Positions 3,115-60,621 of a stretch of DNA of 64,000 nt are shown piece after piece. A model generated the notes under the pieces. It did not search any database, was not told where the DNA came from, and saw only the letters and a list, made by a program, of their open reading frames with translations. Location: positions 26,841 through 90,840 of the forward strand of contig CAWARC010000042.1 in NCBI GenBank assembly GCA_963784325.1. The letters run 5' to 3'. The first letter of the stretch is position 1. Every line of letters begins with the position of its first letter. The position numbers and the translations under genes are program-made. Origin of the DNA: an uncultured Alphaproteobacteria bacterium (GTDB lineage: Bacteria; Pseudomonadota; Alphaproteobacteria; Rhizobiales; Xanthobacteraceae).

Positions 3115-3139
3115 GGAACCGAAAGCGGCAATAACCGTT
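3115..3139 (+). promoter_or_regulatory. Sigma-EcfG-type (general stress response) promoter motif GGAAC-N16-CGTT
   Basis: GGAAC at 3115-3119, 16-nt spacer, CGTT at 3136-3139. It lies 73 nt upstream of the SPW-repeat gene ATG (3212), same strand. Confidence 0.6.
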
Positions 3140-3211
3140 GGGCGGTAAAAGGTGGCCGGTGGTTCCGCGCTAGCCGATCGGATCATCGGCACTTTTGCGA
3201 TGGAGGTCGCT

Positions 3212-3574
3212 ATGGACAAGTGGAGAAATGCGGCAGCTTGTGATGTCGCCAATCTGATCCTCGGCGTGTTCCTGATCCTTAGCCCTTGGCTTCTTCATTT
3301 TGCGCCCGGGGTCCAAAGTTGGAACGCTTGGGCCGGCGGCGGCGTAATTGCCGTTCTATCGATTGCTGCCCTATTCGCTTTCGCGGAATGGGAGGAGTGG
3401 CTCAATCTCATCGTTGGCCTGTGGATCCTGGTCTCGCCCTGGGTACTCAAATTCTCCAGCAGCACTGACGCGATGCGAACCGCCGTCATTGTCGGGCTGA
3501 TCGTTGCCGTGATCGCCGCGATTGAGCTCTGGATGTTCCATCGCTCACCGCCGCGCCTGACCGCGTCACAGTAG
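3212..3574 (+). CDS. SPW repeat membrane protein
   Basis: GGAGG 5 nt upstream of ATG 3212. Two copies of the diagnostic LILSPWLL / LVSPWVL motifs in four predicted TM helices (MDKWRNAAACDVANLILGVFLILSPWLLHF...LWILVSPWVLKF). Confidence 0.8.
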   Translation: MDKWRNAAACDVANLILGVFLILSPWLLHFAPGVQSWNAWAGGGVIAVLSIAALFAFAEWEEWLNLIVGLWILVSPWVLKFSSSTDAMRTAVIVGLIVAVIAAIELWMFHRSPPRLTASQ

Positions 3575-3612
3575 TTGTAAGCGGCCACGGAACCCGCGCG
3601 CGCTAAGCCAGT

Positions 3613-3631
3613 AGGCCGCGTTAAGCGGCCT
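3613..3631 (+). terminator. Short GC hairpin downstream of the SPW gene
   Basis: AGGCCGC-GTTAA-GCGGCCT, 39 nt after the stop codon. No T-tract. Confidence 0.3.
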
Positions 3632-3901
3632 GCACGCGCGTGTGTCCGAATTGTCAGCACACGTGGGTGACTACCTCACGTTCAAGTGCGCTTTTGTGGA
3701 AGGAAGATTGTCGCAGGGTCGAGTGGACTCGTCCCCATGACCAAGTTCGGAACTTCAAAAACAGACAAGTTATAGACGTCCAGGAGCGAACCACAGGCTA
3801 GTCCGTCGCACCCGGCCAGATGGAACGAAGCGGTTCACGATGTCTTTCCCATTCGCACGCCCGGGTGATTGTGGCATAAAGATTTTAGAGAAGAATTTAG
3901 G

Positions 3902-4216
3902 ATGACCAACCTCAAAAGTCTCGCGATTGTCACTGGACTTCTTCTTGCTGGAGGAACTTCCATCGCAATGGCGCAAAACGGTCCCCCCACGCCACCCGCG
4001 GCCAGAGGCGCGGCAGGCAATGCCGCGGCACCTGGGCCGAACTATCTTTGGTCAGCAACTCCATCTCAGTACGTTCCCGGGCAATATTACAATTTTTATC
4101 CAGGTCAGGGGCCGGCGGCTGGCAACACGGCCTGGTGCGAGAACCATTACCGTTCGTACGACCCGGCCACGGGAATGTATCGCGGGTTTGATGGCCGCAT
4201 GCGCCCGTGTCGATGA
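3902..4216 (+). CDS. BA14K family secreted protein
   Basis: Signal peptide MTNLKSLAIVTGLLLAGGTSIAMAQ. C-terminal BA14K signature WCENHYRSYDPATGMYRGFDGRMRPC. The ORF-track start at 3869 is TTG; ATG 3902 is preferred. Confidence 0.8.
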   Translation: MTNLKSLAIVTGLLLAGGTSIAMAQNGPPTPPAARGAAGNAAAPGPNYLWSATPSQYVPGQYYNFYPGQGPAAGNTAWCENHYRSYDPATGMYRGFDGRMRPCR

Positions 4217-4235
4217 GGCAACGATTGTGTCGCGT

Positions 4236-4261
4236 GCCGCCTGTCAGTTTCGGCAGGCGGC
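4236..4261 (+). terminator. Hairpin downstream of the BA14K gene
   Basis: GCCGCCTG-N10-CAGGCGGC, starting 20 nt after the stop. No T-tract. Confidence 0.3.
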
Positions 4262-4398
4262 TCGCGTCGCGGGCAGCGGTGCCGCAGGATTGTAGGTCGT
4301 CGCAGCCGAGAACAACTCGCACTTGCCGGAGAGCGCCCGTCTGTCGGATGGCGGACACGCTGTCGTCATTGGCGTCACAATCCAAGGAGCCTCCAGCC

Positions 4399-4902
4399 AT
4401 GAACCGAAGAATGATCCTTCTTGCCGCGGCCGTAGTGACAGCCTCCCCCGCGCTCGCGCAAACCTCGTCGCAATCGCAAATGGGCGAGGCGGAGAAGACC
4501 CACGCAGAAAAGACTGCCGCAATCGGTGGGGCCTCATTGCAGATGGCCGACATTGCCATGCAGAAAGCCACTCATCCGAAGGTCAGGGAGTTCGCCAAAT
4601 TCGAACACGACGAGCAAACCACGGTGGCTGCGATCCTCAAATCGATGGATCCCAGTTTAAATCCGCCCGCGCCGCCGTCGGATGTAGCTGCAGCTCTTGA
4701 TAAGCTCAAGCAAATGAGAGCAGGCTCGGCCTTCGATCGCGAGTTCATTTCCGCTCCAACCGAAGGCCAGGAGATGCTGCGCACTATCCAGGAGGATTAC
4801 CTGAAAGTGAGACGGAATGACGCGCGATGGATGACGGCAATACAAATGACGATCAAATCGTCGAAAGCGCCGCAATTAATGAAATTTCCGACCAGGATCT
4901 AA
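4399..4902 (+). CDS. DUF4142 domain periplasmic protein
   Basis: AAGGAG at 4385-4390, ATG at 4399. Signal peptide MNRRMILLAAAVVTASPALAQ. ...HPKVREFAKFEHDEQTTVAAILKSM...AGSAFDREFI... is typical of DUF4142. The C-terminal 40 aa look atypical and may be degraded. Confidence 0.6.
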   Translation: MNRRMILLAAAVVTASPALAQTSSQSQMGEAEKTHAEKTAAIGGASLQMADIAMQKATHPKVREFAKFEHDEQTTVAAILKSMDPSLNPPAPPSDVAAALDKLKQMRAGSAFDREFISAPTEGQEMLRTIQEDYLKVRRNDARWMTAIQMTIKSSKAPQLMKFPTRI

Positions 4903-5107
4903 AAGCCGCTACGCATTCCGGTCGGCTCCGTGCCAACTTTGCTGCTCGTCACTTACTGCTTCGCTTGTCCGGCCGTAGTTCCGAGCATCACGATAGGCGC
5001 GACGCGGTAGCCAGTTGCGCCCATGTAGGCTTCAAGGTTGGACGACCTCGGGGTCACCGGCGCTTACATTCTCGAGCATGCGCAATGTTTTTCATCAAAA
5101 CAAAATT

Positions 5108-5203
5108 GAGACGTAAATGGCAGAGACGTAAATAGCAGAGACGTAAATAGCAGAGATGTAAATAGCAGAGACGTAAATAGCAGAGACGTAAATAGCAGAG
5201 ATG
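5108..5203. repeat. Tandem direct repeat, 15-bp unit GAGACGTAAATAGCA x ~6.4
   Basis: Units start at 5108, 5123, 5138, 5153, 5168 and 5183, with a partial unit at 5198. Variants: copy 1 has ..AAATGGCA, copy 4 has GAGATG... This produces the artefactual LCYLRLCYLR ORF on the minus strand. Confidence 0.95.
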
Positions 5204-5354
5204 GGTCACGAACGTCGGATTTTGGCTTTCCTCGGCACGTCCGCTGTCACCCTGAACGCCGACATTTCCTGGCGCCGCGAGGCCACAAAGAGACTTATGC
5301 ACTGTAGCAAACTTGGAAGATTCAACCGCAGCGCATGCGGGGAGCAGCTAAGCA

Positions 5355-5531
5355 TTAGTCGTCGTCATTCGGACCCAGCACATTGCCATTTTCGGGATTG
5401 ACCAAGTGGACATTGCCACAGGCCGTGCAGGTGATCGCCTCATAAAATCCCTCGTCCTTTTCGGGATCGTCAGCCATCCACCCTTGCACCTGCAAGCCGG
5501 TAGTGGGGCAGCGGTAAAGAAACGTGGCCAC
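5355..5531 (-). CDS. Small zinc-ribbon-like conserved hypothetical protein
   Basis: ORF 5355..5606 trimmed to GTG 5531: (M)ATFLYRCPTTGLQVQGWMADDPEKDEGFYEAITCTACGNVHLVNPENG. It has a CPxxG...CxxC pair. The start codon is uncertain. Confidence 0.45.
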   Translation of the reverse strand: MATFLYRCPTTGLQVQGWMADDPEKDEGFYEAITCTACGNVHLVNPENGNVLGPNDDD

Positions 5532-5783
5532 GTCTAGACCGCACCCGTGATTGCCAGGGCGTAAACGAACACGGCCATAAGCCCGAGCGCGGTGACTACT
5601 TCCCACTCCATGGTCGACAATCGACTAACAGGGATGGTGTTTCCCCAGGCCATGCTCGGACATAATGTCACTGCCCGCACGGATGGCCCCGGATTGGGGT
5701 CCAGAGGGGGCTCGTGGACTGTCCGGGGCCAAGGCTACGCTGGTTGTTGCCAAGCCCAACGTGCCCATTGCGGAATTTCGCTA

Positions 5784-5915
5784 TTACGACGGTGTTCCCG
5801 CTTGATTTTGTCGCAACAAGTTCGGCGCCTTCGCGATGTTCTCCGCAATGCGCCTCGCCTCGTCTTTGGTAAGCAGCTTTGCCGCTGATGGTATATGTCC
5901 AGTGTCATGGGCCAT
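5784..5915 (-). CDS. Small hypothetical protein (43 aa)
   Basis: MAHDTGHIPSAAKLLTKDEARRIAENIAKAPNLLRQNQ; weak RBS. It recalls small LLTKDEARRIAxNIAKLPELL proteins of rhizobia, from memory only. Confidence 0.25.
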   Translation of the reverse strand: MAHDTGHIPSAAKLLTKDEARRIAENIAKAPNLLRQNQAGTPS

Positions 5916-6186
5916 ATCACGAAGACCCGTTTGACGATATGGGCACCTGACATGCCTGATCGCGCAGATCAATGGTTTTCTCAACCCGACGCGCTCGATC
6001 TGGCGATTGCCGCGAGAGAACGCGGCATGAGCCATTCAAAACGGCGCCAGCCATAGGCCAAGCGCGAGGACAAAGACGCCTGCCCACAGCGCGGCATTGG
6101 TGATGATCTCGAATAGGTGGCTCACGGTGAGATGATCCACTCTTGCAGATAGGTCAAGCCAAATAGCGCCACACCGGTGACGCTGA

Positions 6187-6425
6187 ATACTAATAGTTCC
6201 GGTACACACAGGCCTTTCGGCGCTCGAGGACAATCTTGCTGTCGTCGGAAACCTGATCTACTTCAGCTTCGTGACTCTGACGTCGGTGAGCTATGGCGAC
6301 ATCGTCACGCTGCATCCGTTTGCGCGTGGTCTTGCGAATGTCGAGGCCATCATAGGCCAACTCTACCCGCAACCCTGTTGGCGCGGCTCGTTACGCTGGA
6401 GCTAGAAAGTCGGCGTGGCAAATAA
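6187..6425 (+). pseudogene. Two-TM potassium-channel fragment (pore loop plus inner helix), 5'-truncated and frameshifted
   Basis: The open frame reads ...NLIYFSFVTLTSVSYGDIVTLHPFARGLANVEAIIGQLYP (selectivity-filter-like TLTSVSYGD). No TM1 or start lies upstream (stops are present). After 6368 the tail ATLLARLVTLELESRRGK is in another frame. Confidence 0.55.
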
Positions 6426-6439
6426 GCCTACGCCCGGAT

Positions 6440-6742
6440 ATGATTTTCGGAAAGGACAGTCATGTGCCGCGCGGTGATGTCCGGATCGAGAACGTGCCCA
6501 ATGCCACGATTGTGCATCCGACTGACGCGGTTATCCGCGTGACACGCGCCTGCGTCTGCGAAAGCGATCTTTGGCGCTACAATGAGCTGGAACCTACGCC
6601 AGGAGGCCGCCCTATGGGCCGCGAGGCGATCGGCGTGGTTGAAGCCATGGGCGCCAATGTGCGCATCATTGGTCGGCTCTATCCGGCGACGCTCCTGGCG
6701 CAACTCGTCACTCTCGTACTTGAGGGTCTGCGCAGCAAATAG
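6440..6742 (+). pseudogene. Chimeric remnant: Zn-dependent alcohol dehydrogenase N-terminal fragment fused to a second copy of the channel C-terminal tail
   Basis: GDVRIENVPNATIVHPTDAVIRVTRACVCESDLW...MGREAIGVVEAMGANVR is a GroES-like ADH N-terminus with degraded CGSD and GHE motifs. It is followed in frame by IIGRLYPATLLAQLVTLVLEGLRSK. Confidence 0.5.
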
Positions 6743-6870
6743 CGTGGCCGCACTGATTTGTAGTATCAAACAGAGACCTACGGAATTATGCGGACGTAGT
6801 TTGGCGGATCGCGCCGGAAAACCTCGCCAGGTACGAGATGTGCAAACCTGACTAGGTTTTTATATGAGTA

Positions 6871-7731
6871 TTACGGTAGGCTACCGAGCGCGTAAGCTGC
6901 ACGATTCAATGTCCCAGGCTCCAGGCCGATCTGGCTAAACCACTTTTTGAACTCGTCATAAATCAACCCGCTGCGGAAGATTTGAGCTAGACCAGTATTG
7001 ACTGCCAACCGCAGGGCCCAATCTCCTCGGGGTAGGACAATGGCATAGGCCTCCATCGACAGATCATCGGGCAACATCATCAACGCTGAGGCATTTTTCA
7101 CCTGTGTGCCAAGCAAGAGCAATTTGTCTCCCGCATAGCCATCCACCTTGCCGGCCTCTAAGGCGGCGACGCCTTCATCCCTGTTATTAACAGGGACCAA
7201 GGTGACACCTAAATTGTCGTGGTTACTTTGCGCCATGACGGCGTCGCCGTTAGTTGTCCCGGACACGACTGCAATCTTTTTCCCTGCCATATCCGAAAAG
7301 GCATGAATGTTAGCGGCTTGGGATACCAGGACGCCCGTCGATTCGACGAAGATAATGTTGGAAAAATCGACTTCCTTCATGCGCGCCAACGTTACAGTGC
7401 TAGATCCGCATTCTATGTCTGCCCGGCCACTTGATACGGCAGTCAAACGCGAATGCACATCCACTGGTACCCATTGGATTTTCAGATCTGCCAAACCGAC
7501 CTGTTGCGCGATCGATTTTGTGACCGATTGGCATACGTCGACCGAGAAACCCACGGCTTCGTGTTTGTCGTTGGCAAATGCGAACGGCGTCGCATCAGTG
7601 CGATAGGCTATACGGATAGTCTTACTGTCGCTGATCGTTTTAAGGCGGCTGTCGGACGGATATTGTGGCTGCGCAGATGCCGTCGCCAAAAATCCGAAAA
7701 TCGCAACCAAGAGTCCAATAACTCGAAACAT
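6871..7731 (-). CDS. Amino-acid ABC transporter substrate-binding protein (family 3), orphan
   Basis: 286 aa. Signal peptide MFRVIGLLVAIFGFLATASA. IRIAYRTDATPFAF...GFSVDVC...ADIECGSSTVTLARMKEVDFS is typical of SBP_bac_3. No permease or ATPase gene is adjacent. Confidence 0.8.
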   Translation of the reverse strand: MFRVIGLLVAIFGFLATASAQPQYPSDSRLKTISDSKTIRIAYRTDATPFAFANDKHEAVGFSVDVCQSVTKSIAQQVGLADLKIQWVPVDVHSRLTAVSSGRADIECGSSTVTLARMKEVDFSNIIFVESTGVLVSQAANIHAFSDMAGKKIAVVSGTTNGDAVMAQSNHDNLGVTLVPVNNRDEGVAALEAGKVDGYAGDKLLLLGTQVKNASALMMLPDDLSMEAYAIVLPRGDWALRLAVNTGLAQIFRSGLIYDEFKKWFSQIGLEPGTLNRAAYALGSLP

Positions 7732-8067
7732 TTTCGTACTCCCCAGAAACCATTACTTGCGACTAAGCTAGCGGCTCATATCCGAACAACCGAAAGGAAA
7801 CCTAGTGGCACGGCACCAGTTTCCACTGGCCAAGCGTTCGGACCAAACATACCATCGCCGCGCTCGTCCATGTCGCGAGACCGACCAGACGGCGTATTAA
7901 TTTCAATGCCATAGCCGTCACCCCTTTAAAGCTATGAAACTAAGCTCGCCGCCGTCCGGTATCGCAAAATGTGTGGCCTTTCCCCCTGGAGATGCTTGAG
8001 AGAAGTATTGTCAGTATACTGGAATGCTCTATCGTCAGCATGGCAAAAGTTGGCGCAGGGCGGTCTA

Positions 8068-9574: not shown

Positions 9575-9590
9575 TCGGCAGAACGCGGCC

Positions 9591-36138: not shown

Positions 36139-36995
36139 GCGTGCCCCCCGTCCGTCTCGGCTGAGCCGGCTTGGCCATAGCGGCGGCGCGGCTGCGCACT
36201 CTCCGATATGGCTTTGCGGATTTCGTCATGCAGCAGGCCATAGAGTTGGTCGCGCAGCGCATGGAATTTTGGCGCCGTCATGAAGGACGGCTTGCGCGGA
36301 TGCGGCTCGTCGACGGGGATGATTTGCTTGATCGTCCCGGGCCGCGCCGAGAACACGGCCACGCGGTCGGCCAGGAACACGGCCTCGCCGAGACTATGGG
36401 TGACGAAGACGATGGTCTTGTTCGATCGCGACAGCAGCACCGAAAGATCTTCGCCGAGCACCATGCGCGTTTGCTCGTCGAGCGCGCCAAACGGCTCGTC
36501 CATCAACAGAATGTCAGTCTCCAGGCTGAGCGCGCGGGCAAGCGCGGCGCGCTGGCGCATGCCGCCCGACAATTGGGCCGGATAATGCTCGGTGAAGTCG
36601 AGGAGACCGACAGCCTCCAGTGCGCGGCGGGCGCGCGGACCGCGCTCGGCCTTGGCGACGCCCTGGAACGTCATCCCAAGCACGACGTTTTCAAGCACCG
36701 TATTCCATGGAAACAGCGCGCTTTCCTGAAACACGAAGGCGAGGTCGCGCGGCATCGGCCCGCGCACCGGCGTGCCCGCGACCGCGACCGTGCCGGTGGT
36801 CGGCGCAAATAGTCCTCCCATAATGCCGAGCAACGTCGACTTGCCGCATCCCGAGGGTCCGATCAGGCACAACAATTCGCCGCGCGCGACATCGAGCGAC
36901 GTATCGAGGAGCGCCTGCACATGACGTGCTTCGCCTGGCTCGCCAAACTGATGCGAGACGCCGTTGACGCGGATGGCGGGCTGCGCGGATGCCAT
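36135..36995 (-). CDS. ABC transporter ATP-binding protein (NitT/TauT family)
   Basis: 286 aa. Walker A GPSGCGKST, signature LSGGMRQR, Walker B LLMDEPFGALD. Confidence 0.85.
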   Translation of the reverse strand: MASAQPAIRVNGVSHQFGEPGEARHVQALLDTSLDVARGELLCLIGPSGCGKSTLLGIMGGLFAPTTGTVAVAGTPVRGPMPRDLAFVFQESALFPWNTVLENVVLGMTFQGVAKAERGPRARRALEAVGLLDFTEHYPAQLSGGMRQRAALARALSLETDILLMDEPFGALDEQTRMVLGEDLSVLLSRSNKTIVFVTHSLGEAVFLADRVAVFSARPGTIKQIIPVDEPHPRKPSFMTAPKFHALRDQLYGLLHDEIRKAISESAQPRRRYGQAGSAETDGGHA

Positions 36996-45880: not shown

Positions 45881-46102
45881 CTAGCAATCCATCGCAGATT
45901 CTCCAGCGGGTCGCCCGTGCAAGGACCTCGCATGTAGAACGGCTTCGCTACTTCGTTCAGCTTGGTCGGCCAATTTGAGCCAGTCGCGGGCCATGCTGAG
46001 GAGGAAGACCCTGCGGTCCACGTCGCCGATGTGCTCCGCAAGTTCGATGCAGTTGGCGGCATAGAGTTGGTAGCAAGCAATAGCTTCGCGAGTTACAGAC
46101 AT
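45881..46102 (-). CDS. Small hypothetical protein (73 aa)
   Basis: Trimmed to ATG 46102 (GGGGA upstream): MSVTREAIACYQLYAANCIELAEHIGDVDRRVFLLSMARDWLKLADQAE... Confidence 0.35.
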   Translation of the reverse strand: MSVTREAIACYQLYAANCIELAEHIGDVDRRVFLLSMARDWLKLADQAERSSEAVLHARSLHGRPAGESAMDC

Positions 46103-46246
46103 TCCCCCGAATGTCGCTGAGCGCCCCCATGCGTCTTTTGACATAAGCGGGAATCCCGACATTTGTTCCGGGTTAAACGGTTGGCCAAAGCAGCCGGGGC
46201 GGGAACGGGCGGGGCAAGAAAATTTTTACTTTTGCTGCCTTTTGCC

Positions 46247-46442: not shown

Positions 46443-52763
<6,321 letters not shown>

Positions 52764-52773: not shown

Positions 52774-54675
52774 ATGAACAAGACCGTTATGGCCGAGAAA
52801 GTCAACGTTCTGCTGGTCGACGATCAGCCCGATAAGCTTATGGCCTACGAGGTCATCCTCGGCGACCTCGATGAGAATCTGGTCAAAACCGCGTCGGCGC
52901 GCGAGGCCTTGCAGTTTCTGCTCAAGAACGACGTTGCCGTTGTTCTCATCGACGTGTGCATGCCGGAACTCGACGGCTTTCAATTGGCGGCGATGATCCG
53001 CGAGCACCCACGGTTTCGCAAGACGGCGATCATCTTCATCTCGGCCATTCATCTGACCGACGTCGATCGGCTGCGCGGCTATGAGATGGGTGCGGTCGAC
53101 TACGTGCCGGTTCCGGTCGTGCCCGAAGTCCTACGCGCCAAGGTGCGAGTGTTCGCCGAATTGTTCCGCAAGACGCGCGAGCTCGAGCGGCTGAATTCGA
53201 CGCTCGAACGCCACGTCGCCGAGCGGACCGCCGAGTTGCAAGCCTCCAACGCGCGACTGCTCGAAAGCGAGCAGCAATTGCGGCTGGCGACCGAGGCCGC
53301 CGAAATCGGCTTGTGGGACGTCGACACGGTCACCGATACGCTGTTCTGGCCGCCACGCGTCAAGGCCATGTTCGGGATCGCGCCGGACGTGTCCGTGAGC
53401 ATGGCGGATTTCTATGAAGGTTTGCATCCCGACGATAAGGAGACAATCATCGCGGCCTTTGCCGCAGCTTGCGACCCGCAAAAGCGCGCACTCTACGATG
53501 TCGAGTATCGCACTGTCGGCAAGGAAGACGGCGTTATTCGCTGGGTCGCGGCCAAGGGCCGCGCAGTCTTTGACGCCGATGGAAAATGCGTTCGCGTGAT
53601 CGGCACCGCACTTGATATTTCCAAACGCAAGGAAGCGGAGGAGCGTCAAGTGTTGCTGGCGCGCGAGGTCGATCATCGCGCCCGCAACGCGCTCGCCGTG
53701 ATCCAATCGATCATCCGGCTCACGCGCGCCAAAACCGTCGACGATTACGTGCAGGCAATCGAGGGCCGCATCAAGGCGCTGGCGCGTGCGCACACGTTGT
53801 TGTCGGATTCGCGCTGGCACGGCGCCGATCTGGCGACTTTGGTCACCGAGGAACTCGCGCCCTATCGCGGCGGCGACAAGATCACGATCCGCGGGCCCGA
53901 TATCTCGCTGCAGCCGGCGACTGCGCAGGGACTGGCGCTGGCGCTGCACGAGCTTGCCACCAACGCCGCCAAGCACGGCGCGCTGTCCTCGCCCAGCGGC
54001 AAGATTACGCTCGACTGGCAATTGCATAGCGACTCCTTGGCGCTGAATTGGGCGGAAACCGGCGGCCCCGACATCGCCTCGCCGTCGTCGCGAAGCTTCG
54101 GCCTCAAGGTCATCGTCGCCAGCATCGAGCAGCAGCTTGGCGGCAAAGCGGCATTCGACTGGGATCCAAAAGGTCTGCGCTGCGCATTCTCGATACCGCG
54201 CAGCGAGCTGACGAAGTCGCGGGCACTCAATGCCTTGCGCGATAACGGTCAAGCCAATGGCGCCGTCATCGGGCTCAAACGCGACGAGAAGCCGCGCGTG
54301 CTTCTGGTCGAAGACGAAGCACTGGTCGCCATGATGATCCAGGAAACGATGACCGAGTTCGGCTTCCAGGTGATCGGTCCCGTCAGCACGGCGTCCGAGG
54401 CTTTGGCCGCGGCGCGCAACAGCCAGTTCGAGGCCGCCGTGCTCGACATCAATCTCGGCGACGGCATGGTCTATACAGTCGCCGAGATATTGAGCAAACG
54501 CGGCGTACCATTCGTGTTTGTCACCGGCTATGACGCCGAGAGCGTCGACAGCCGTTTCACCGGCGTGCCGGTCCTGCAAAAGCCCATCGAACGCAATATG
54601 CTGCAGAAGGTCTTTCTGCTCGGTGCCGGGGACACGGTGGCCGCCGACGAACCCCGATCGGCGGCGCGCGCCTGA
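52774..54675 (+). CDS. REC-PAS-HWE/HisKA_2 histidine kinase-REC protein
   Basis: 633 aa, 10 nt after the poly-HAMP gene. N-REC (VLLVDDQPD...VLIDVCMPELDG), PAS (...LWDVDTVTDTLFWPPRVKAMFG...), H-box EVDHRARNALAVIQSI, N-box HELATNAAKHGA, W-x-E (LNWAETGGP) and C-REC (VLLVEDEALV...AVLDINLGDG). Confidence 0.85.
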   Translation: MNKTVMAEKVNVLLVDDQPDKLMAYEVILGDLDENLVKTASAREALQFLLKNDVAVVLIDVCMPELDGFQLAAMIREHPRFRKTAIIFISAIHLTDVDRLRGYEMGAVDYVPVPVVPEVLRAKVRVFAELFRKTRELERLNSTLERHVAERTAELQASNARLLESEQQLRLATEAAEIGLWDVDTVTDTLFWPPRVKAMFGIAPDVSVSMADFYEGLHPDDKETIIAAFAAACDPQKRALYDVEYRTVGKEDGVIRWVAAKGRAVFDADGKCVRVIGTALDISKRKEAEERQVLLAREVDHRARNALAVIQSIIRLTRAKTVDDYVQAIEGRIKALARAHTLLSDSRWHGADLATLVTEELAPYRGGDKITIRGPDISLQPATAQGLALALHELATNAAKHGALSSPSGKITLDWQLHSDSLALNWAETGGPDIASPSSRSFGLKVIVASIEQQLGGKAAFDWDPKGLRCAFSIPRSELTKSRALNALRDNGQANGAVIGLKRDEKPRVLLVEDEALVAMMIQETMTEFGFQVIGPVSTASEALAAARNSQFEAAVLDINLGDGMVYTVAEILSKRGVPFVFVTGYDAESVDSRFTGVPVLQKPIERNMLQKVFLLGAGDTVAADEPRSAARA

Positions 54676-54687
54676 TCGCTTGGCCCG

Positions 54688-56568: not shown

Positions 56569-56730
56569 ATTCGCGCCTGGGCTGATTGGCTCTCATCCAA
56601 AGCATGAAAGCCAAGTGGAAGCTAAGCCGCGATGGCCCCACGCGTGGGTGCCCCAGCGGCAGGTCGGAACATTATCGTAGACGCTTCGAAATTGCCTACA
56701 GCAAAAGACGCAACGCCCATATTCCGACGT

Positions 56731-56755
56731 GGAACTCTGTTCCGTGAGGTGCGTT
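56731..56755 (+). promoter_or_regulatory. Sigma-EcfG-type promoter motif GGAAC-N16-CGTT upstream of the Crp/Fnr-family gene
   Basis: GGAAC at 56731-56735, spacer TCTGTTCCGTGAGGTG, CGTT at 56752-56755. It lies 118 nt upstream of ATG 56873. Confidence 0.55.
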
Positions 56756-56872
56756 TTCCTTCGGAATGACTGATCTGGAAGAATGGATTTTGTAGGCTTC
56801 CATGCAATTTACTCGTCGTAATGTCTGCTCTCTGACATAACAATTCAGCTTAAGCTCTTGAGGACCGCTGGG

Positions 56873-57601
56873 ATGCAGCTCAGTTGCTACCAATGTGAAT
56901 TGCGCGCCTGCGGGTTGTTCAAGCCAATCACGGCGGATGAACTCGCCACCATCGACGCGCTGAAGAAGCAGCACGTAAAGCTGCCGGCCGGCGCCGAAAT
57001 CATTCACGCCGGTGAGGACAGCCCGGAGCTTTACACGCTCTATTCCGGCTGGGCGTTCCGTTTCAAGGCACTGCCTGACGGCCGCAGGCAGATTTTGAAT
57101 TTCCTGTTGCCTGGGGATTTGCTTGGCCTGCAGGCCGCCATGTTCGACGCGGCGCAACACGGCATCGAGGCGCTGACCGACGTGCAGCTCTGCGTCCTGC
57201 CGCGGCGCGACGTCTGGGCGCTGTTCGGTGAAATGCCGGGTCTCGCCTTCGACCTCACTTGGCTCGGCGCGCGCGAAGAAAGCATCGTCGATGAAAACCT
57301 TACCAGCGTCGGGCGGCGCGCCGCCTTGGAGCGCGTAGCTGCCCTGATCATTGCGCTCTACAAGCGCGCCAAGCTATTGGGCCTCGTTAACGACGACAGT
57401 TTCGCTTTTCCGCTGAACCAGCAGCACATTGCCGATGCGCTCGGTCTATCGCTCGTTCACACCAATAAGACCTTGGCGAAGTTGCGGCGCCTGGGGATGT
57501 TCACCAGCAGCAATGGCACGCTGACGCTTACCAATCCGCACGTGCTCGAGCGCGTCGGCCAATTTTTCGACGAGGAAATTCCGCAGCGGCCGCTGATTTG
57601 A
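56873..57601 (+). CDS. Crp/Fnr family transcriptional regulator with N-terminal Cys cluster (Fnr/FnrN-like)
   Basis: The ORF-track start at 56858 is TTG; ATG 56873 gives MQLSCYQCELRACGLF... (C-x2-C-x4-C) plus a central Cys (VQLCVLP). It has a cNMP-binding-like fold and a C-terminal HTH ...IADALGLSLVHTNKTLAKLRRLGM. Confidence 0.75.
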   Translation: MQLSCYQCELRACGLFKPITADELATIDALKKQHVKLPAGAEIIHAGEDSPELYTLYSGWAFRFKALPDGRRQILNFLLPGDLLGLQAAMFDAAQHGIEALTDVQLCVLPRRDVWALFGEMPGLAFDLTWLGAREESIVDENLTSVGRRAALERVAALIIALYKRAKLLGLVNDDSFAFPLNQQHIADALGLSLVHTNKTLAKLRRLGMFTSSNGTLTLTNPHVLERVGQFFDEEIPQRPLI

Positions 57602-57660
57602 TTGCAGCGAAAAAGCCCCGGCCAGTGGCCGGGGCTTTCGCCGAACGAGACATGCTTGCG

Positions 57661-58077
57661 TTATTCGCTGGACTTGTCGGGTACCCAAGTCGTCTTGGTG
57701 CTGTCGTATTTGAAACCGGGCGCCTTCTTGAGTGCGTCCTTGGTCGTAGCCAATGTCAGATAGACCTTGTCGTCTTTCATGGTCTTTTTGATGGAGTTGA
57801 AGCTGACGGCGACATCCTTCTCGCCAGCACCGAGGAATCCGCCGACGCCGACGATCGCGGCCTGGACCTGCCCGTCTTTGGCGACCAGTACGTCCATAAT
57901 TTCGCCGATCTTGGCGTTGGACGGATCGTAGACGTCCTGCTTGTACCAGTCGGTGACCGTCAGGCTCGACGACGGAACGCTGGTCATGAGTCCGGAGCCG
58001 CCGGCCGCCATCGGCTGGGCGAAAGCCGCCGTGGAAAGCAGGAGCGCGCCGGTGGATAGAGCAACTAGCATTTTCAT
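57661..58077 (-). CDS. PRC-barrel domain periplasmic protein
   Basis: ORF 57661..58344 trimmed to ATG 58077 (GGAGG upstream). Signal peptide MKMLVALSTGALLLSTAAFAQ. ...DVYDPSNAKIGEIMDVLVAKDGQVQAAIVGVGGFLGAGEKDVAV. Confidence 0.8.
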   Translation of the reverse strand: MKMLVALSTGALLLSTAAFAQPMAAGGSGLMTSVPSSSLTVTDWYKQDVYDPSNAKIGEIMDVLVAKDGQVQAAIVGVGGFLGAGEKDVAVSFNSIKKTMKDDKVYLTLATTKDALKKAPGFKYDSTKTTWVPDKSSE

Positions 58078-58361
58078 TGTGTGAAATCCTCCAAGGGTGT
58101 GGATTGTGATACAAAACAACGTCCGAAATTGGCATTTGGCTCCAGCTCGCAAAAAAATATTCCACGACGGAACGAAACGTCGTTGAACTGATCGCGCCCT
58201 ACGTGGAAAGCAGACTTCGGTCGAATCGGCCCCGGGCACGCCTGCTGAGGGCGATTCAATATTTCTGGCGACGGATGGCGGCTGTCGTTGTTCCGGGACA
58301 TGCCGACCCCAAGGAGGCCCGTGTTCGAAACGGAACAAAGGCACCCCTAGGGCATTGGCTT

Positions 58362-58445
58362 TTCACGGAAATTGCTCGCCCGGGACAGCGCTGACATTCG
58401 ATCCACAAGGAGATGAAATCCCTCGGCTTCGACCGGGGATTTTTA
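58362..58445 (+). ncRNA. Candidate small RNA (~85 nt) bounded by a near-consensus EcfG-type promoter and an intrinsic terminator
   Basis: GGAAC (58332-58336)-N16-CATT (58353-58356). Terminator hairpin AAATCCCTCGG-CTTCGA-CCGGGGATTT followed by TTTTA (58416-58445). It sits in the 466-bp divergent intergenic region. Ends are predicted, not observed. Confidence 0.25.
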
Positions 58446-58543
58446 TCCTTAAGGCTCCTAGTCTAGCGAAAGAGAGGAACGATTCGCATCGAGCGGCGTA
58501 GTTCAGACGACTTTTACATCGACGCACGAAATCGAAAACCGAC

Positions 58544-59629
58544 ATGAAGCTTTTTAAATGCCAGCATTGCGAGCAGTTGCTCTACTTCGAGAACATCGTG
58601 TGCAAGAAATGCTCGCACCGGCTCGGCTTCATTCCCGAAATCATGAACCTGTCCGCGCTGGAGCAAAACGGCGACGCTTGGCGCGCGCTGGCGGTCGACA
58701 AGAAGAGGTATCGTTTTTGCGCCAACGCCGAATTCAACGTCTGCAACTGGATGGTCGAGGCCGGTTCACCTGACGCCTATTGTGCGGCCTGTCGGCATAA
58801 TCGCACTATTCCTGACACCGGCATCCTGGAAAATCTCTTGGCGTGGCAAAAGATCGAGGTGGCCAAGCATCGGCTGTTCTACACGCTGATGAAGCTCAAT
58901 CTGCCGCTCGACGAGCGCAACGAGAGGGGCGGCGAGCGCCTGGCGTTCGATTTTCTGGCAAGCGCACCGCATGTCGGTGGACCGCGGGTGATGACGGGTC
59001 ACGATAACGGCCTGATCACGCTGGCGCTTGAAGAGGCCGATGACGCCGAGCGCGAGAAGCGTCGTACCATTATGCACGAGCCGTACCGTACGCTGCTCGG
59101 CCATTTCCGCCATGAGGTCGGCCATTATTTTTGGGACCTTCTGGTGCGCGATGGCGGCCTCACTGAGGACTGTCGCAAGATTTTCGGCGACGAGAGTGCG
59201 GATTACGGCGCCGCGCTGCAGTCGTATTACGCCAACGGTGCGCCTTCGAACTGGCAGGACAATTTCATTAGTGCCTACGCTACGTCGCATCCGTGGGAAG
59301 ATTTCGCCGAAACATGGGCGCATTACCTGCATATCGTCGATACGCTGGAAATGGCCCGCGCCTTCGGCATGTATGTGCATCCGCGGCTGGCGCGGCCGGG
59401 CGAGCTCGATGCCCAGGTCGATTTCGATCCATACACCGTGCGCGACCCGTCGCCGCTGATCGAGACTTGGATTCCGTTGAGCAACGCGCTCAACAGCCTC
59501 AACCGGACCATGGGATTATTGGACGTCTATCCGTTCATCCTGTCGCCGCCGGTCGTCGAAAAGCTGAGCGCCATCCACGACCTTATCCACGGCAACAAGC
59601 TGCCGGTGCGGGAAGTGAAAGCGGCTTAA
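58544..59629 (+). CDS. Zinc-ribbon plus putative zinc-binding metallopeptidase family protein
   Basis: 361 aa. MKLFKCQHCEQLLYFENIVCKKCSHRLGF (zinc ribbon). HExxH motif in FRHEVGHYFWD. Confidence 0.7.
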   Translation: MKLFKCQHCEQLLYFENIVCKKCSHRLGFIPEIMNLSALEQNGDAWRALAVDKKRYRFCANAEFNVCNWMVEAGSPDAYCAACRHNRTIPDTGILENLLAWQKIEVAKHRLFYTLMKLNLPLDERNERGGERLAFDFLASAPHVGGPRVMTGHDNGLITLALEEADDAEREKRRTIMHEPYRTLLGHFRHEVGHYFWDLLVRDGGLTEDCRKIFGDESADYGAALQSYYANGAPSNWQDNFISAYATSHPWEDFAETWAHYLHIVDTLEMARAFGMYVHPRLARPGELDAQVDFDPYTVRDPSPLIETWIPLSNALNSLNRTMGLLDVYPFILSPPVVEKLSAIHDLIHGNKLPVREVKAA

Positions 59630-59708
59630 ACATGATCCCAAAACGAAGTGACGTGGCACGGCCTGCGCCGGGTTGCCGACGCAGGCCGCCACGTGGCGGG
59701 GTCTTCAG

Positions 59709-60437
59709 TTAGGCCGGAATGATATCGACGATTTCCAATGTATCCGGATCGATGATCAGGATGTTGTCGCCGACTATGATATAATCAAAGCCCTCGAATT
59801 GCGGGACGACTTCCACAATATCTTGAGGCAGCACTTCGACGTGAACCGTGCGCGGTATCGCGACGCCCACTTCCACGTTGAAGTTCACATTGGTGACGCG
59901 AGCCGCCGAGCTGTGGCCGATGACGGCCTGAATCTTAGTGCGCTGCGTTTGTGACAGCTGAACTTTGGCGCCGCGTGAACCGGTATTCTTGCTGGCGTTC
60001 TGCTCATTGGCCTTCGTGCCGGACTTGCTGTTCTCTTCCTGCGCGCCACGCTGCTCCTGGGTACCGGACTTTTCTTCCTGAGCACCGCGCTGTTGTTCAG
60101 TGCCGCGCTTTTCTTCCTGCGCGCCGCGTTCTTCCTGCGCTCCAGGTTTCTCTTCCTGCGCGCCGCGCTGCGGCATAGTTTGCTTTTGCTCGTCCTGGCC
60201 CATGCGCTGGTCCGGCTTTGCGCCTTGCGCGGGCGTTTGCGCCGATTTGGCGGCGCCAGCTCCGTTGATGTTGCCCTTAAGCGCTCCGCCCATGGCGCCC
60301 GGGGCCTGGTGCTCGGTGCTTTCCGGTTTCGCGGCGGTGCCGCCGCTCGGGGTTTGCATCGTTTGCGCCGACGCTAAGCCGGCGACTCCCACGACTGCCG
60401 CCGCGGCGACCGTCGTCAGCAATAACTTTCTCATCAT
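59709..60437 (-). CDS. DUF1236 domain secreted protein with RGAQEE-rich low-complexity linker
   Basis: 242 aa; signal peptide MMRKLLLTTVAAAAVVGVAGLASAQ. Repeats GAQEEKPGAQEERGAQEEKRG...RGAQEEKSG...RGAQEE. C-terminal ...ARVTNVNFNVEVGVAIPRTVHVEVLPQDIVEVVPQFEGFDYIIVGDNILIIDP. Confidence 0.8.
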   Translation of the reverse strand: MMRKLLLTTVAAAAVVGVAGLASAQTMQTPSGGTAAKPESTEHQAPGAMGGALKGNINGAGAAKSAQTPAQGAKPDQRMGQDEQKQTMPQRGAQEEKPGAQEERGAQEEKRGTEQQRGAQEEKSGTQEQRGAQEENSKSGTKANEQNASKNTGSRGAKVQLSQTQRTKIQAVIGHSSAARVTNVNFNVEVGVAIPRTVHVEVLPQDIVEVVPQFEGFDYIIVGDNILIIDPDTLEIVDIIPA

Positions 60438-60595
60438 GCGTCTCCTGTTTTTCCCTCAAAATCGAGGGACGGCGCTTTGCACCGGCAAACCGCGTTCCCG
60501 ATCGATCATGCACTGCTGCCACAACTCGGATGCAACGCTGGCGTTCCGACGTTGAATGCCGAGATTTGCAGCAATTGGGTGTCGGAAGTGCAGGA

Positions 60596-60621
60596 GGAAC
60601 TTTCATCAGCTAGCCGACGTT
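60596..60621 (+). promoter_or_regulatory. Sigma-EcfG-type promoter motif GGAAC-N17-CGTT
   Basis: GGAAC at 60596-60600, spacer TTTCATCAGCTAGCCGA, CGTT at 60618-60621. It lies 59 nt upstream of ATG 60680. Confidence 0.6.

What the first reader, a model, noticed from the sequence alone, without database searches (positions are those of the whole stretch)
3115..60621. Four exact sigma-EcfG (general stress response) promoter motifs, all intergenic and correctly oriented
Seen: exact GGAAC-N16/17-CGTT at 3115-3139 (upstream of the SPW-repeat gene), 46247-46271 (poly-HAMP kinase operon), 56731-56755 (Fnr-like regulator) and 60596-60621 (54-aa membrane protein). Each lies 59-172 nt upstream of a same-strand start codon. 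Near matches sit upstream of the PRC-barrel gene (GGAGC-N17-CGTT, minus strand, 58118-58143), the DUF1236 gene (GGAAC-N16-AGTT, minus strand, 60523-60547), the metallopeptidase-like gene (GGAAC-N16-CGTA, 58476-58500), a candidate sRNA (GGAAC-N16-CATT, 58332-58356) and the 73-aa ORF (GGAAC-N16-GCTT, minus strand, 46145-46169). Simple arithmetic (9 fixed bases, 2 spacers, 2 strands, 64 kb) predicts about one exact hit in the whole window, and far fewer within the ~10% that is intergenic and in the right orientation. Established: GGAAC-N16-17-CGTT is the EcfG/SigT/RpoE2 promoter consensus of Alphaproteobacteria, and SPW, PRC-barrel, DUF1236 and BA14K-type small envelope proteins are typical regulon members. 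Inference: this window is a dense patch of the GSR regulon that includes signalling genes. I scanned only intergenic regions by eye.
Basis: partly seen in the sequence, partly recalled or inferred. Interest (0 to 1): 0.7.

Follow-up and report, generated by a model that had tools for sequence, protein, structure and literature searches.

The report
General-stress (EcfG-type) promoters, soil Xanthobacteraceae
The four motifs are real, evolutionarily conserved promoters of the kind read by the alphaproteobacterial general-stress sigma factor EcfG, so this stretch of an uncultured soil bacterium's genome is a dense but textbook patch of its stress regulon.

Summary
Observation confirmed. The whole window holds 6 exact GGAAC-N16/17-CGTT sites, against about 1 expected. 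The four reported sites are the only intergenic ones, and all four point at a start codon 59-172 nt downstream. Intergenic expectation is 0.15, and none of 2000 shuffles reached 4. The two extra exact hits lie antisense inside coding sequence, consistent with chance.

Interpretation supported. In orthologous loci from other uncultured Xanthobacteraceae and relatives, both boxes stay fixed while the spacer drifts:
- poly-HAMP/HWE kinase operon: exact in 7 of 7 loci.
- 54-aa membrane protein: exact in 9 of 9.
- SPW gene: 3 of 3 at the same distance in three different genomic contexts.
- Fnr-like gene: GGAAC plus xxTT in 5 of 5.

The near matches (DUF1236, peptidase, PRC-barrel, BA14K) are conserved too. 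In relatives the same promoter drives CsbD and DUF892, and PRC-barrel, Crp-like, BA14K and kinase genes are published EcfG targets.

The patch continues past the right edge of the window. No ecfG/nepR/phyR gene lies in the window and there are no expression data, so the identity of the sigma factor is inferred. This is a known kind of system with new members, of modest interest.

The parts
3115..3139 (+). Exact EcfG-type promoter (GGAAC-N16-CGTT) of the SPW gene. Predicted TSS about 3146-3148.
   Evidence: The same motif sits at the same distance in L168 and L170 (exact) and in L172 (TGTT), in three different genomic contexts. In Bradyrhizobium sp. LHD-71 (L174) SPW follows DUF892, which carries the exact motif.
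3212..3574 (+). SPW-repeat membrane protein gene (120 aa).
   Evidence: Pfam PF03779, E = 2e-25. 960 homologues found.
3822..3847 (+). One-mismatch promoter (GGAAC-N17-CTTT) of the BA14K gene.
   Evidence: Orthologues: exact CGTT in L175/L176, CTTT in L179, shortened spacer in L177.
3902..4216 (+). BA14K-like secreted small protein gene.
   Evidence: Pfam PF07886. ba14K is among the top three EcfG targets in Brucella abortus (PMC12354254).
46247..46271 (+). Exact EcfG-type promoter of the poly-HAMP / HWE kinase operon, preceded by an A/T-rich block.
   Evidence: GGAAC and GCGTT are invariant in 8 sequences with a variable 16-nt spacer (alignment A2).
46443..52763 (+). 2106-aa hybrid histidine kinase: about 11 HAMP units, GAF, HisKA, HATPase, 3 REC.
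   Evidence: Pfam. In L094 it is reduced to a 47-codon stub, and the promoter then feeds the HWE kinase directly.
52774..54675 (+). REC-PAS-HWE_HK-REC histidine kinase, second gene of the operon. It belongs to the kinase family that controls PhyR in known GSR systems.
   Evidence: Pfam PF07536 HWE_HK. The NCBIfam kinase core is LovK-like and the C-terminal REC is PhyR-like, both below the family cut-offs.
46145..46169 (-). Weak candidate promoter (GGAAC-N16-GCTT, 2 mismatches) of the 73-aa ORF. It is followed at once by the palindromic box at 46130-46145.
   Evidence: The L116 counterpart is GGAAC-N16-AGTT plus a similar box, separated from its gene by an IS insertion.
45881..46102 (-). 73-aa ORF with no known family.
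   Evidence: No Pfam or NCBIfam hit. A 40%-identical homologue lies next to the same operon in L116.
56731..56755 (+). Exact EcfG-type promoter of the Fnr-like regulator gene.
   Evidence: GGAAC is invariant in 6 genomes, and the -10 element is CGTT, AGTT, CATT, GGTT, AGTT or GGTT.
56697..56712 (.). Conserved 16-bp palindromic box (consensus TAyGTCAwwwGAyryA), about 19 bp upstream of the -35 element. Possible operator of the Fnr-like regulator.
   Evidence: Alignment A1. In 2.0 Mb of fetched DNA the box occurs only upstream of the orthologous Fnr-like genes and at 46130-46145.
56873..57601 (+). Crp/Fnr-family regulator with Cys5, Cys8, Cys13 and Cys107.
   Evidence: Pfam cNMP_binding plus HTH_Crp_2. 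The best NCBIfam match is FnrL, below cut-off. Translation.
58118..58143 (-). PRC-barrel gene promoter with a variant -35 element (GGAGC-N17-CGTT).
   Evidence: Orthologues have GGAGC-N16-CGTT (L091/L093) and GGCAC-N16-CGTT (L094).
57661..58077 (-). PRC-barrel protein gene with a signal peptide.
   Evidence: Pfam PF05239. PRC-barrel genes are EcfG/RpoE2 targets in S. melonis and S. meliloti.
58332..58356 (+). One-mismatch motif (GGAAC-N16-CATT) in front of the candidate small RNA.
   Evidence: An equivalent motif occurs only in L088 among 7 lineages.
58364..58447 (+). Candidate 80-90-nt small transcript. Its conserved 3' module is GATCCACAAGGA plus an intrinsic terminator (58421-58438 followed by a T-run).
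   Evidence: Terminator. The 3' module is conserved in 7 lineages, the 5' part is not. No Rfam family. Fold z-score -0.33.
58476..58500 (+). Peptidase_Mx gene promoter (GGAACGATTCGC-...-CGTA).
   Evidence: GGAACGAT-N13-CGT[A/C/T] is conserved in L089-L094 and L096, and in distant homologues L145, L149, L153, L158, L161 and L165. It is an exact CGTT in L153 and L165.
58544..59629 (+). Zinc-ribbon plus putative zinc metallopeptidase (Peptidase_Mx) gene.
   Evidence: Pfam PF15887, E = 1e-105, and PF10005.
60523..60547 (-). DUF1236 gene promoter (GGAAC-N16-AGTT), divergent from the 54-aa gene promoter.
   Evidence: GGAACG-N15-AGTT occurs in L088, L090, L094, L097, L098, L181 and L183, and an exact CGTT in L185.
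59709..60437 (-). Secreted DUF1236 protein gene.
   Evidence: Pfam PF06823.
60596..60621 (+). Exact EcfG-type promoter (N17) of the 54-aa membrane protein gene.
   Evidence: Exact in 9 of 9 other genomes (L001, L088, L090, L094, L097, L098, L181, L183, L185). In L088, L097 and L098 a CsbD-like gene sits between the promoter and the gene.
60680..60844 (+). 54-aa tail-anchored small membrane protein.
   Evidence: At least 928 homologous clusters, no Pfam family, annotated only as hypothetical.
60866..63914 (-). Cytochrome c and GMC oxidoreductase genes: the distal part of a three-subunit dehydrogenase operon whose exact EcfG-type promoter lies just beyond the window's end.
   Evidence: Pfam. L081, a closely related strain that differs from the window by indels, has an exact motif 38 nt upstream of the Gluconate_2-dh3 gene (window-equivalent about 64.7 kb), another before DUF892, and a one-mismatch site before a 336-aa ORF. 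A one-mismatch counterpart occurs in L001.
36665..36689 (+). Exact motif inside and antisense to a coding gene. Judged a chance match.
   Evidence: The coding-region count of 2 against 0.84 expected is not significant.
46482..46507 (-). Exact motif antisense inside the 5' end of the poly-HAMP ORF. Judged a chance match.
   Evidence: It is made by the codons for [10 protein letters not shown], and orthologues use other synonymous codons that lose the motif.

Best explanation
The four exact sites are promoters recognised by the ECF15-type general-stress sigma factor (EcfG/SigT/RpoE2) of an uncultured soil Xanthobacteraceae bacterium. So are the variants in front of the BA14K, PRC-barrel, Peptidase_Mx and DUF1236 genes.

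Proposed mechanism, inferred from the established PhyR-NepR-EcfG model:
1. Under stress, HWE/HisKA2-family kinases phosphorylate PhyR.
2. Phosphorylated PhyR sequesters the anti-sigma factor NepR.
3. Free EcfG directs RNA polymerase to GGAAC (-35) and CGTT (-10), 16-17 bp apart.
4. Transcription starts about 7-9 nt downstream of the -10 element.

In this window that would co-induce two groups of genes:
- Small envelope proteins: SPW, BA14K, PRC-barrel, DUF1236 and the 54-aa membrane protein, together with a putative zinc peptidase and a membrane dehydrogenase operon.
- A second regulatory tier: a poly-HAMP hybrid kinase with a REC-PAS-HWE kinase, and an Fnr-like transcription factor.

Shown here: the motifs exist, are enriched only in intergenic sense positions, and are conserved as a bipartite element across orthologous promoters. 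Inferred: which sigma factor reads them, the start sites, and stress induction.
For: Statistics:
- 4 intergenic exact hits against 0.15 expected, with 0 of 2000 shuffles reaching 4.
- Permuted control motifs give a mean of 0.11 and a maximum of 2 in intergenic DNA.
- All 4 point at a gene start.
- In 262 kb of related loci there are 44 exact hits, against a mean of 4.7 and a maximum of 25 for 359 permuted motifs.

Footprints:
- poly-HAMP promoter: GGAAC and GCGTT are invariant in 8 sequences with variable spacers.
- 54-aa gene: exact in 9 of 9 other genomes.
- SPW: conserved at an identical distance in three unrelated genomic contexts.
- Fnr-like gene: GGAAC is invariant in 6 genomes.
- DUF1236: 8 of 8.
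- BA14K: 3 of 4.

Gene content:
- In relatives the same promoters drive CsbD, DUF892, a Gly/Gln-rich hydrophilin and a CoxS-like gene.

Literature:
- GGAAC-N16-CGTT is the R. etli EcfG1 motif (PMC3892343).
- The S. melonis EcfG regulon includes a Crp-like gene and a PRC-barrel gene, and tolerates xGTT or CATT at -10 (PMC6599016).
- S. meliloti RpoE2 directly drives a PRC-barrel gene, the exsG/exsF two-component genes and seven sRNAs, with mapped TSSs 7-9 nt after the -10 element (PMC6180224).
- ba14K is a top EcfG target in Brucella (PMC12354254).

Host and context:
- The host is Xanthobacteraceae.
- Almost no sigma-70-like promoters are seen in 56.5-61 kb: 2 weak sites against 1.5 expected.
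Against: - No ecfG, nepR or phyR gene lies in the window or in the fetched flanks, so the presence of the sigma factor in this genome is assumed from taxonomy.
- There are no TSS or expression data.
- ECF promoters share AAC/CGT features, and cross-recognition between ECF groups is documented: RpoE6 (ECF26) overlaps the RpoE2 regulon in S. meliloti (PMC6180224).
- The whole-window count of 6 is tied by 2 of 359 permuted motifs.
- Several sites deviate from the consensus: GGAGC at -35, and AGTT, CGTA, CATT or CTTT at -10.
- No held paper names SPW or DUF1236 as regulon members.
Confidence: 0.85

Rival explanations
1. The sites are genuine ECF-type promoters, but they are read by another ECF sigma factor rather than by the PhyR/NepR-controlled master EcfG. 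Candidates are a second, non-canonical EcfG paralogue or an ECF26-like factor with overlapping specificity.
For: Many alphaproteobacteria carry several EcfG copies with distinct or overlapping regulons (PMC3892343; PMC7083833, listed). S. meliloti RpoE6 (ECF26) activates 27 RpoE2 targets (PMC6180224). No sigma factor gene is in the window.
Against: The ECF26 consensus is GGAATA/GT rather than GGAAC/CGTT. The downstream genes (CsbD, DUF892, PRC-barrel, BA14K, an HWE kinase) are the classical GSR set.
Confidence: 0.1
2. The conserved GGAAC...CGTT pairs are not promoters. They would be binding sites for a transcription factor, or conserved parts of 5' leader RNAs.
For: The leaders downstream of the SPW and poly-HAMP motifs also contain conserved blocks. 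No TSS data exist.
Against: Two short invariant boxes at a fixed 16-17 bp spacing, with a freely varying spacer, upstream of about ten unrelated genes, are the signature of a sigma-factor promoter. The motif is not palindromic. The predicted RNA structure in the leader is weak.
Confidence: 0.04
3. The four sites are chance matches in a GC-rich genome.
For: About one exact match per 64 kb is expected. Two exact matches in coding DNA are indeed best explained by chance. Two permuted motifs also reach 6 hits in the window.
Against: The intergenic expectation is 0.15 against 4 observed, with 0 of 2000 shuffles reaching 4. All four are in sense orientation. Every one is conserved in orthologous promoters of genomes whose flanking non-coding DNA no longer aligns.
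Confidence: 0.01

Closest known systems
Sinorhizobium meliloti RpoE2 (ECF15) general stress regulon
   Same: Same bipartite motif, with TSSs mapped 7-9 nt after the -10 element. Direct targets include a PRC-barrel protein, a histidine kinase/response regulator pair (exsG/exsF), further regulators and small RNAs, and most targets are small proteins of unknown function (PMC6180224).
   Different: That regulon is defined experimentally (transcriptomes, 5' RACE); here everything is sequence-based. The poly-HAMP kinase, Peptidase_Mx and the 54-aa protein are not named among the targets in the passages I read. The host is a different family.
Sphingomonas melonis Fr1 EcfG regulon
   Same: The top EcfG-dependent genes include a Crp-like 'cAMP-binding' regulator, a PRC-barrel protein, small secreted and membrane proteins and CoxSML-like dehydrogenases. 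Motifs accumulate within about 100 bp of start codons, and -10 variants (GGTT, AGTT, CATT) are accepted (PMC6599016).
   Different: The published motif there is looser (GGAAC-N17-20-GTT). The kinases that feed PhyR (the Paks) are characterised there and unknown here.
Bradyrhizobium diazoefficiens PhyR-EcfG regulon
   Same: Same GTDB family as the window's organism. The regulon exceeds 100 genes (PMC8092242). In Bradyrhizobium sp. LHD-71 the SPW orthologue sits in a DUF892-SPW unit behind an exact motif.
   Different: The primary regulon paper (Gourion et al. 2009) is not in the held library, so orthologue-by-orthologue membership could not be checked.
GsrN / ReC64-type EcfG-dependent small RNAs
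   Same: A short intergenic transcript with an EcfG-like promoter and an intrinsic terminator, like the candidate at 58364-58447 (PMC5869019; PMC3892343).
   Different: GsrN-like RNAs lie next to the ecfG-phyR locus and have a conserved C-rich 5' loop. The candidate here lies next to a peptidase gene, its conserved part is the 3' box GATCCACAAGGA, and the EcfG-like promoter is present in only 2 of 7 lineages.

Membership tests
EcfG (ECF15)-dependent promoter / alphaproteobacterial GSR regulon | Bipartite consensus GGAAC-N16/17-CGTT. | tested here: met
   Four exact intergenic sites. Consensus as published for R. etli EcfG1 (PMC3892343).
EcfG (ECF15)-dependent promoter / alphaproteobacterial GSR regulon | Located upstream of a gene on the same strand, at promoter distance. 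| tested here: met
   58-171 nt lie between motif and ATG, and none is in antisense orientation. This is comparable to the distances in S. melonis Table 1.
EcfG (ECF15)-dependent promoter / alphaproteobacterial GSR regulon | Enrichment over chance in non-coding sense positions. | tested here: met
   4 observed against 0.15 expected, with 0 of 2000 shuffles reaching 4. Permuted controls reach at most 2. Coding hits are at chance level.
EcfG (ECF15)-dependent promoter / alphaproteobacterial GSR regulon | Both boxes conserved in orthologous promoters while the spacer sequence varies. | tested here: met
   poly-HAMP 7 of 7 other loci (8 sequences aligned, window included), 54-aa gene 9 of 9, SPW 3 of 3 plus one operon variant, Fnr-like 5 of 5 (-35 invariant, -10 xxTT), DUF1236 8 of 8, BA14K 3 of 4.
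EcfG (ECF15)-dependent promoter / alphaproteobacterial GSR regulon | Downstream genes belong to families shown to be EcfG-dependent elsewhere. | tested here: inconclusive
   Met for PRC-barrel, the Crp-like regulator, BA14K and two-component kinases. For CsbD and DUF892, which the same promoters drive in relatives, the stress-gene status rests on my own knowledge; CsbD had 0 occurrences in the two regulon papers where I searched for it. No held paper lists SPW, DUF1236, Peptidase_Mx or the 54-aa protein.
EcfG (ECF15)-dependent promoter / alphaproteobacterial GSR regulon | The host is an alphaproteobacterium that encodes ecfG, nepR and phyR. | tested here: inconclusive
   The taxon is Xanthobacteraceae. 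The three genes are not in the window or the fetched flanks, and the rest of the genome could not be read with these tools.
EcfG (ECF15)-dependent promoter / alphaproteobacterial GSR regulon | A TSS 6-10 nt downstream of the -10 element, and loss of expression in ecfG or phyR mutants. | not testable with these tools
   This needs dRNA-seq, 5' RACE or reporter fusions. The organism is uncultured.
GsrN-like EcfG-dependent sRNA | Near-consensus EcfG promoter, intergenic transcript with terminator, proximity to the ecfG-phyR locus, and a conserved C-rich 5' loop. | tested here: not met
   The terminator is present. The promoter is one mismatch from consensus and is found in only 2 of 7 lineages. 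The 5' part is not conserved and shows no C-rich loop. No Rfam hit. No GSR locus is nearby.

The most novel reading that the evidence does not exclude
The patch is more than a list of stress genes. It would be a portable 'GSR island' with its own second regulatory tier, made of two EcfG-driven parts:
- A giant poly-HAMP hybrid kinase with a REC-PAS-HWE kinase, which would feed back on PhyR.
- An Fnr-like regulator, possibly sensing oxygen or redox state, with a conserved non-FNR-type palindromic operator (TAyGTCAwwwGAyryA) at its own promoter and at the start site of the 73-aa ORF.

Together these would couple the general stress response to a redox signal. A small RNA with the conserved box GATCCACAAGGA might add a post-transcriptional arm. 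Genes such as csbD would be swapped in and out behind fixed EcfG promoters.
Probability: 0.25. Interest if true: 0.5.

Novelty: new member of a known kind. Interest (0 to 1): 0.3.

Why it matters
The finding gives a confident, conservation-backed promoter annotation for about ten transcription units in an uncultured, peat- and soil-dwelling Xanthobacteraceae lineage.

It also nominates several uncharacterised families as core general-stress genes:
- the SPW protein
- DUF1236
- the Peptidase_Mx zinc peptidase
- a 54-aa membrane protein family with at least 928 clusters and no Pfam entry

It further shows that an HWE kinase operon and an Fnr-like regulator are conserved EcfG-type targets, which suggests feedback and cascade control.

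None of this changes the current picture of the alphaproteobacterial general stress response. It extends that picture to new genes and a new lineage.

Tried and rejected
1. A genome-contig scan with the CHASE3 kinase as anchor returned mostly paralogous kinases. Only L001 (71% identity) was partly syntenic, so the Peptidase_Mx gene was used as the anchor in metagenome contigs instead.
2. Rfam searches found no known RNA family, either on the whole window at gathering thresholds or on 58080-58560 at E <= 10. The only hit was a spurious U12 match.
3. The candidate sRNA folds no better than shuffles (z = -0.33) and only its 3' module is conserved. It is not accepted as an EcfG-dependent sRNA and is kept only as a lead.
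4. The conserved poly-HAMP leader was tested for a consensus structure. Only one downstream hairpin shows a little covariation (covariation term -1.1 kcal/mol), so no riboswitch-like element is claimed.
5. The antisense exact hit at 46482 is rejected as a promoter because orthologues lose it through synonymous codon changes. The hit at 36665 could not be tested comparatively and is treated as chance.
6. Literature searches for SPW or DUF1236 in GSR regulons found nothing direct. The only related item is an aluminium-stress-induced DUF1236 gene in Rhizobium phaseoli (PMC8909678).
7. The review PMC4710059 and the Bradyrhizobium regulon paper (Gourion et al. 2009) are not held.
8. The palindromic box upstream of the Fnr-like gene does not match the canonical FNR box TTGAT-N4-ATCAA, judged from my own knowledge of that consensus. 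Assigning it to this regulator is therefore speculative.

Full report
**Observation**

A pattern search over both strands of the whole window finds six exact GGAAC-N16/17-CGTT sites. Dinucleotide-preserving shuffles predict 1.04, with a largest value of 4 in 100 shuffles.

I built a gene map from codon-usage scoring and checked it with Pfam. On that map these four are the only exact sites in intergenic DNA. Each points at a start codon on the same strand, with 72, 171, 117 and 58 nt between the motif and the ATG.

- an SPW-repeat protein;
- a 2106-aa kinase with about 11 HAMP units, then GAF, HisKA, HATPase and 3 REC domains, followed by a REC-PAS-HWE_HK-REC kinase;
- a Crp/Fnr-family regulator with an Fnr-like cysteine pattern (Cys5, Cys8, Cys13, Cys107);
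- a 54-aa protein with no known family.

The five near matches are also as described. GGAAC-N16-GCTT before the 73-aa ORF is two mismatches from the consensus, not one.

**Is it more than chance?**

Intergenic DNA makes up 13% of the window (8.4 kb). Shuffling each intergenic segment gives 0.15 exact hits on average, and none of 2000 shuffles reaches 4. Coding DNA holds 2 hits against 0.84 expected (P = 0.2).

As a second control I counted all 359 composition-matched permutations of the two boxes. In intergenic DNA they average 0.11 hits with a maximum of 2. Over the whole window two permuted motifs also reach 6. The signal therefore lies in position and orientation, not in the raw count.

Allowing one mismatch gives 32 sites. 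Twelve of these lie in the 13% that is intergenic, and ten of those are in sense orientation.

Both exact hits in coding DNA are antisense to the gene that contains them.
- The one at 46482-46507 is spelled by the codons for [10 protein letters not shown] at the start of the poly-HAMP protein. Orthologues encode the same peptide with other synonymous codons and lose the motif, so it is a by-product of coding.
- The one at 36665 could not be tested and is consistent with the chance expectation.

**Source organism**

Exact-protein look-ups place the window in ENA soil metagenome assemblies. Cluster members that carry names are all 'Xanthobacteraceae bacterium' MAGs. The closest species-representative genome has only 71-84% protein identity (L001). 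The host is therefore an uncultured member of the family that, in GTDB, also contains Bradyrhizobium.

**Phylogenetic footprinting**

This is the main evidence. I fetched orthologous loci in three ways: 80 metagenome loci anchored on the Peptidase_Mx gene at 57-87% identity, L001, and contigs encoding homologues of the SPW, BA14K and 54-aa proteins.

- *poly-HAMP/HWE operon.* In an alignment of eight promoters, GGAAC and GCGTT are invariant, the 16-nt spacer varies, and an A/T-rich block lies upstream. In L094 the poly-HAMP gene is reduced to a 47-codon stub and the same promoter feeds the HWE kinase directly.
- *54-aa gene.* The exact motif is present in nine of nine other genomes. In three of them a CsbD-like gene is inserted between the promoter and the 54-aa gene.
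- *DUF1236.* The divergent promoter is GGAAC-N16-AGTT in seven genomes and an exact CGTT in an eighth.
- *SPW.* The motif lies at the same distance from the ATG in three orthologues sitting in three unrelated gene neighbourhoods. In Bradyrhizobium sp. LHD-71 the SPW gene follows DUF892, which carries the exact motif.
- *Fnr-like gene.* GGAAC is invariant in six genomes, and the -10 element is CGTT, AGTT, CATT, GGTT, AGTT or GGTT.
- *Peptidase_Mx.* GGAACGAT-N13-CGT[A/C/T] recurs in close homologues and in some distant ones, and is an exact CGTT in two of the distant ones.
- *PRC-barrel.* CGTT is kept, with GGAGC or GGCAC at -35.
- *BA14K.* GGAAC-N17-C[G/T]TT occurs in three of four lineages and is exact in one.

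In 262 kb of these related loci the true motif occurs 44 times. The 359 permuted motifs average 4.7 with a maximum of 25.

**What the promoters drive**

In relatives, exact motifs precede several other genes:
- CsbD;
- DUF892, which in L185 instead lies just downstream of the 54-aa gene;
- a Gly/Gln-rich hydrophilin;
- a CoxS-like subunit.

The Gluconate_2-dh3/GMC/cytochrome c dehydrogenase operon has an exact motif in L081 and a one-mismatch counterpart in L001.

L081 is a closely related strain that differs from the window by indels. It shows that the patch continues past the window's right edge:
- an exact motif 38 nt upstream of the dehydrogenase operon, whose distal genes occupy 60866-63914;
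- a one-mismatch site before a 336-aa ORF;
- an exact motif before DUF892.

From about 56.7 kb to a window-equivalent of about 66.4 kb, essentially every transcription unit carries the motif. By contrast, the metabolic operons between about 8 and 45 kb have no intergenic site within one mismatch. Only two weak sigma-70-like matches are found in 56.5-61 kb.

**Comparison with what is known**

- GGAAC-N16-CGTT is the published motif of R. etli EcfG1 (PMC3892343).
- In Sphingomonas melonis the top EcfG-dependent genes include a Crp-like regulator and a PRC-barrel protein, and -10 variants such as GGTT, AGTT and CATT are common (PMC6599016).
- In S. meliloti, RpoE2 directly drives a PRC-barrel gene, the exsG/exsF two-component genes, other regulators and seven sRNAs. 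5' RACE places the start 7-9 nt after the -10 element (PMC6180224).
- ba14K is among the three strongest EcfG targets in Brucella abortus (PMC12354254).
- HWE/HisKA2 kinases are the known inputs to PhyR (abstracts listed).

The window therefore fits the known system in motif, architecture and gene content. I could not verify from held papers that SPW and DUF1236 are established regulon members. For those two the evidence is the conservation shown here, plus stress induction of a DUF1236 gene in R. phaseoli.

**What remains inferred**

No ecfG, nepR or phyR gene lies in the window or the fetched flanks, and there are no TSS or expression data. The identity of the sigma factor rests on the motif, the gene set and the taxonomy. 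A paralogous or cross-reacting ECF sigma factor cannot be excluded, and I give that about 10%.

Predicted start sites are 3146-3148, 46278-46280, 56762-56764 and 60628-60630.

**Side observations**

1. A 16-bp palindromic box (TAyGTCAwwwGAyryA) lies about 19 bp upstream of the -35 element of the Fnr-like gene in all six genomes.
   - In 2.0 Mb of fetched DNA it occurs otherwise only at 46130-46145, directly after the weak promoter of the 73-aa ORF.
   - L116 has a similar arrangement.
   - It may be the operator of the Fnr-like regulator, although it is not a canonical FNR box.
2. The candidate sRNA has a conserved 3' module, GATCCACAAGGA plus a terminator, in seven lineages.
   - Its 5' part and its EcfG-like promoter are not conserved: the promoter is present in 2 of 7 lineages.
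   - It has no Rfam match.
   - Its fold is unexceptional.
3. The poly-HAMP leader has conserved sequence blocks but weak structural support.
4. Gene content behind fixed promoters is fluid among relatives.
   - A csbD gene is inserted in some.
   - The poly-HAMP gene is deleted to a stub in L094.
   - The whole 46-58 kb block is absent in L096.
   - An IS element is inserted in L116.

**Verdict**

This is a well-understood kind of regulatory element in a new, uncultured lineage. Its value lies in annotation and in nominating new conserved regulon members. It is not a surprise for specialists.

Noticed in passing
window 56697-56712 (+) and 46130-46145 (-); orthologous sites in L089, L093, L094, L097, L098: A conserved 16-bp palindromic box, TAyGTCAwwwGAyryA. 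It lies about 19 bp upstream of the -35 element of the Fnr-like gene in six genomes, and once more directly downstream of the weak promoter of the 73-aa ORF. In 2.0 Mb of fetched DNA it occurs nowhere else. It may be the operator of the Fnr-like regulator, but it is not a canonical FNR box.
   Followed up: partly
window 58402-58447 (within the candidate sRNA 58364-58447): The box GATCCACAAGGA followed by an intrinsic terminator is conserved about 30-90 nt upstream of the Peptidase_Mx promoter in seven lineages and travels with that gene into different neighbourhoods. The sequence 5' of the box is not conserved, and there is no Rfam family.
   Followed up: partly
window 46272-46442 (poly-HAMP 5' leader): A 170-260-nt leader with blocks conserved in eight genomes (TCAtGGCA..GGTGAG..GTGnGGGGGAT.C.ACgTCGG). 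RNAalifold gives only weak structural support.
   Followed up: partly
L081 16181-16205 (-), 16536-16560 (+), 17795-17819 (+); window-equivalent about 64.7-66.4 kb: The motif-rich patch continues beyond the window's right edge. There are exact motifs before the Gluconate_2-dh3/GMC/cytochrome c operon and before DUF892, and a one-mismatch site before a 336-aa ORF. The distal genes of that dehydrogenase operon are at window 60866-63914.
   Followed up: yes
L088 3437-3800, L097 8007-8440, L098 5771-6160; L094 1-450; L096 1605-3292; L116 7073-9172: Gene content behind the fixed promoters is fluid among relatives. A CsbD-like gene is inserted between the promoter and the 54-aa gene in three genomes. 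The poly-HAMP gene is reduced to a 47-codon stub in L094. In L096 the ADH, AAA_33/APH and Peptidase_Mx genes are adjacent, so the window's 46-58 kb block is an indel. In L116 an IS element separates the 73-aa ORF homologue from its presumed promoter.
   Followed up: partly
window 60680-60844: The 54-aa tail-anchored membrane protein belongs to a large family (at least 928 clusters at 90% identity). It has no Pfam or NCBIfam model and is annotated only as 'hypothetical'. In every genome examined it is preceded by the exact motif.
   Followed up: partly
window 958-8000: A low-GC stretch (56-59% against about 62% elsewhere) lies next to an IS5-like transposase (958-2304). It holds the phasin, SPW, BA14K and DUF4142 genes. 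The DUF4142 ORF (4402-4902) matches only positions 3-102 of the 138-position profile and may be truncated. Codon usage here is atypical for the window.
   Followed up: no
window 5108-5201: A 15-bp tandem repeat (GAGACGTAAATAGCA, 6.3 copies, 96% matches) in non-coding DNA.
   Followed up: no
L102, L104-L112, L114-L116, L099, L107: about 350 nt upstream of their Peptidase_Mx genes: In the homologues at about 70% identity, an exact or one-mismatch GGAACCAA...GTT motif drives a 60-70-aa Gly/Gln-rich hydrophilin (MANMNQNQGGQQGGQ...) with its own terminator. This is another likely stress protein next to the peptidase gene.
   Followed up: partly
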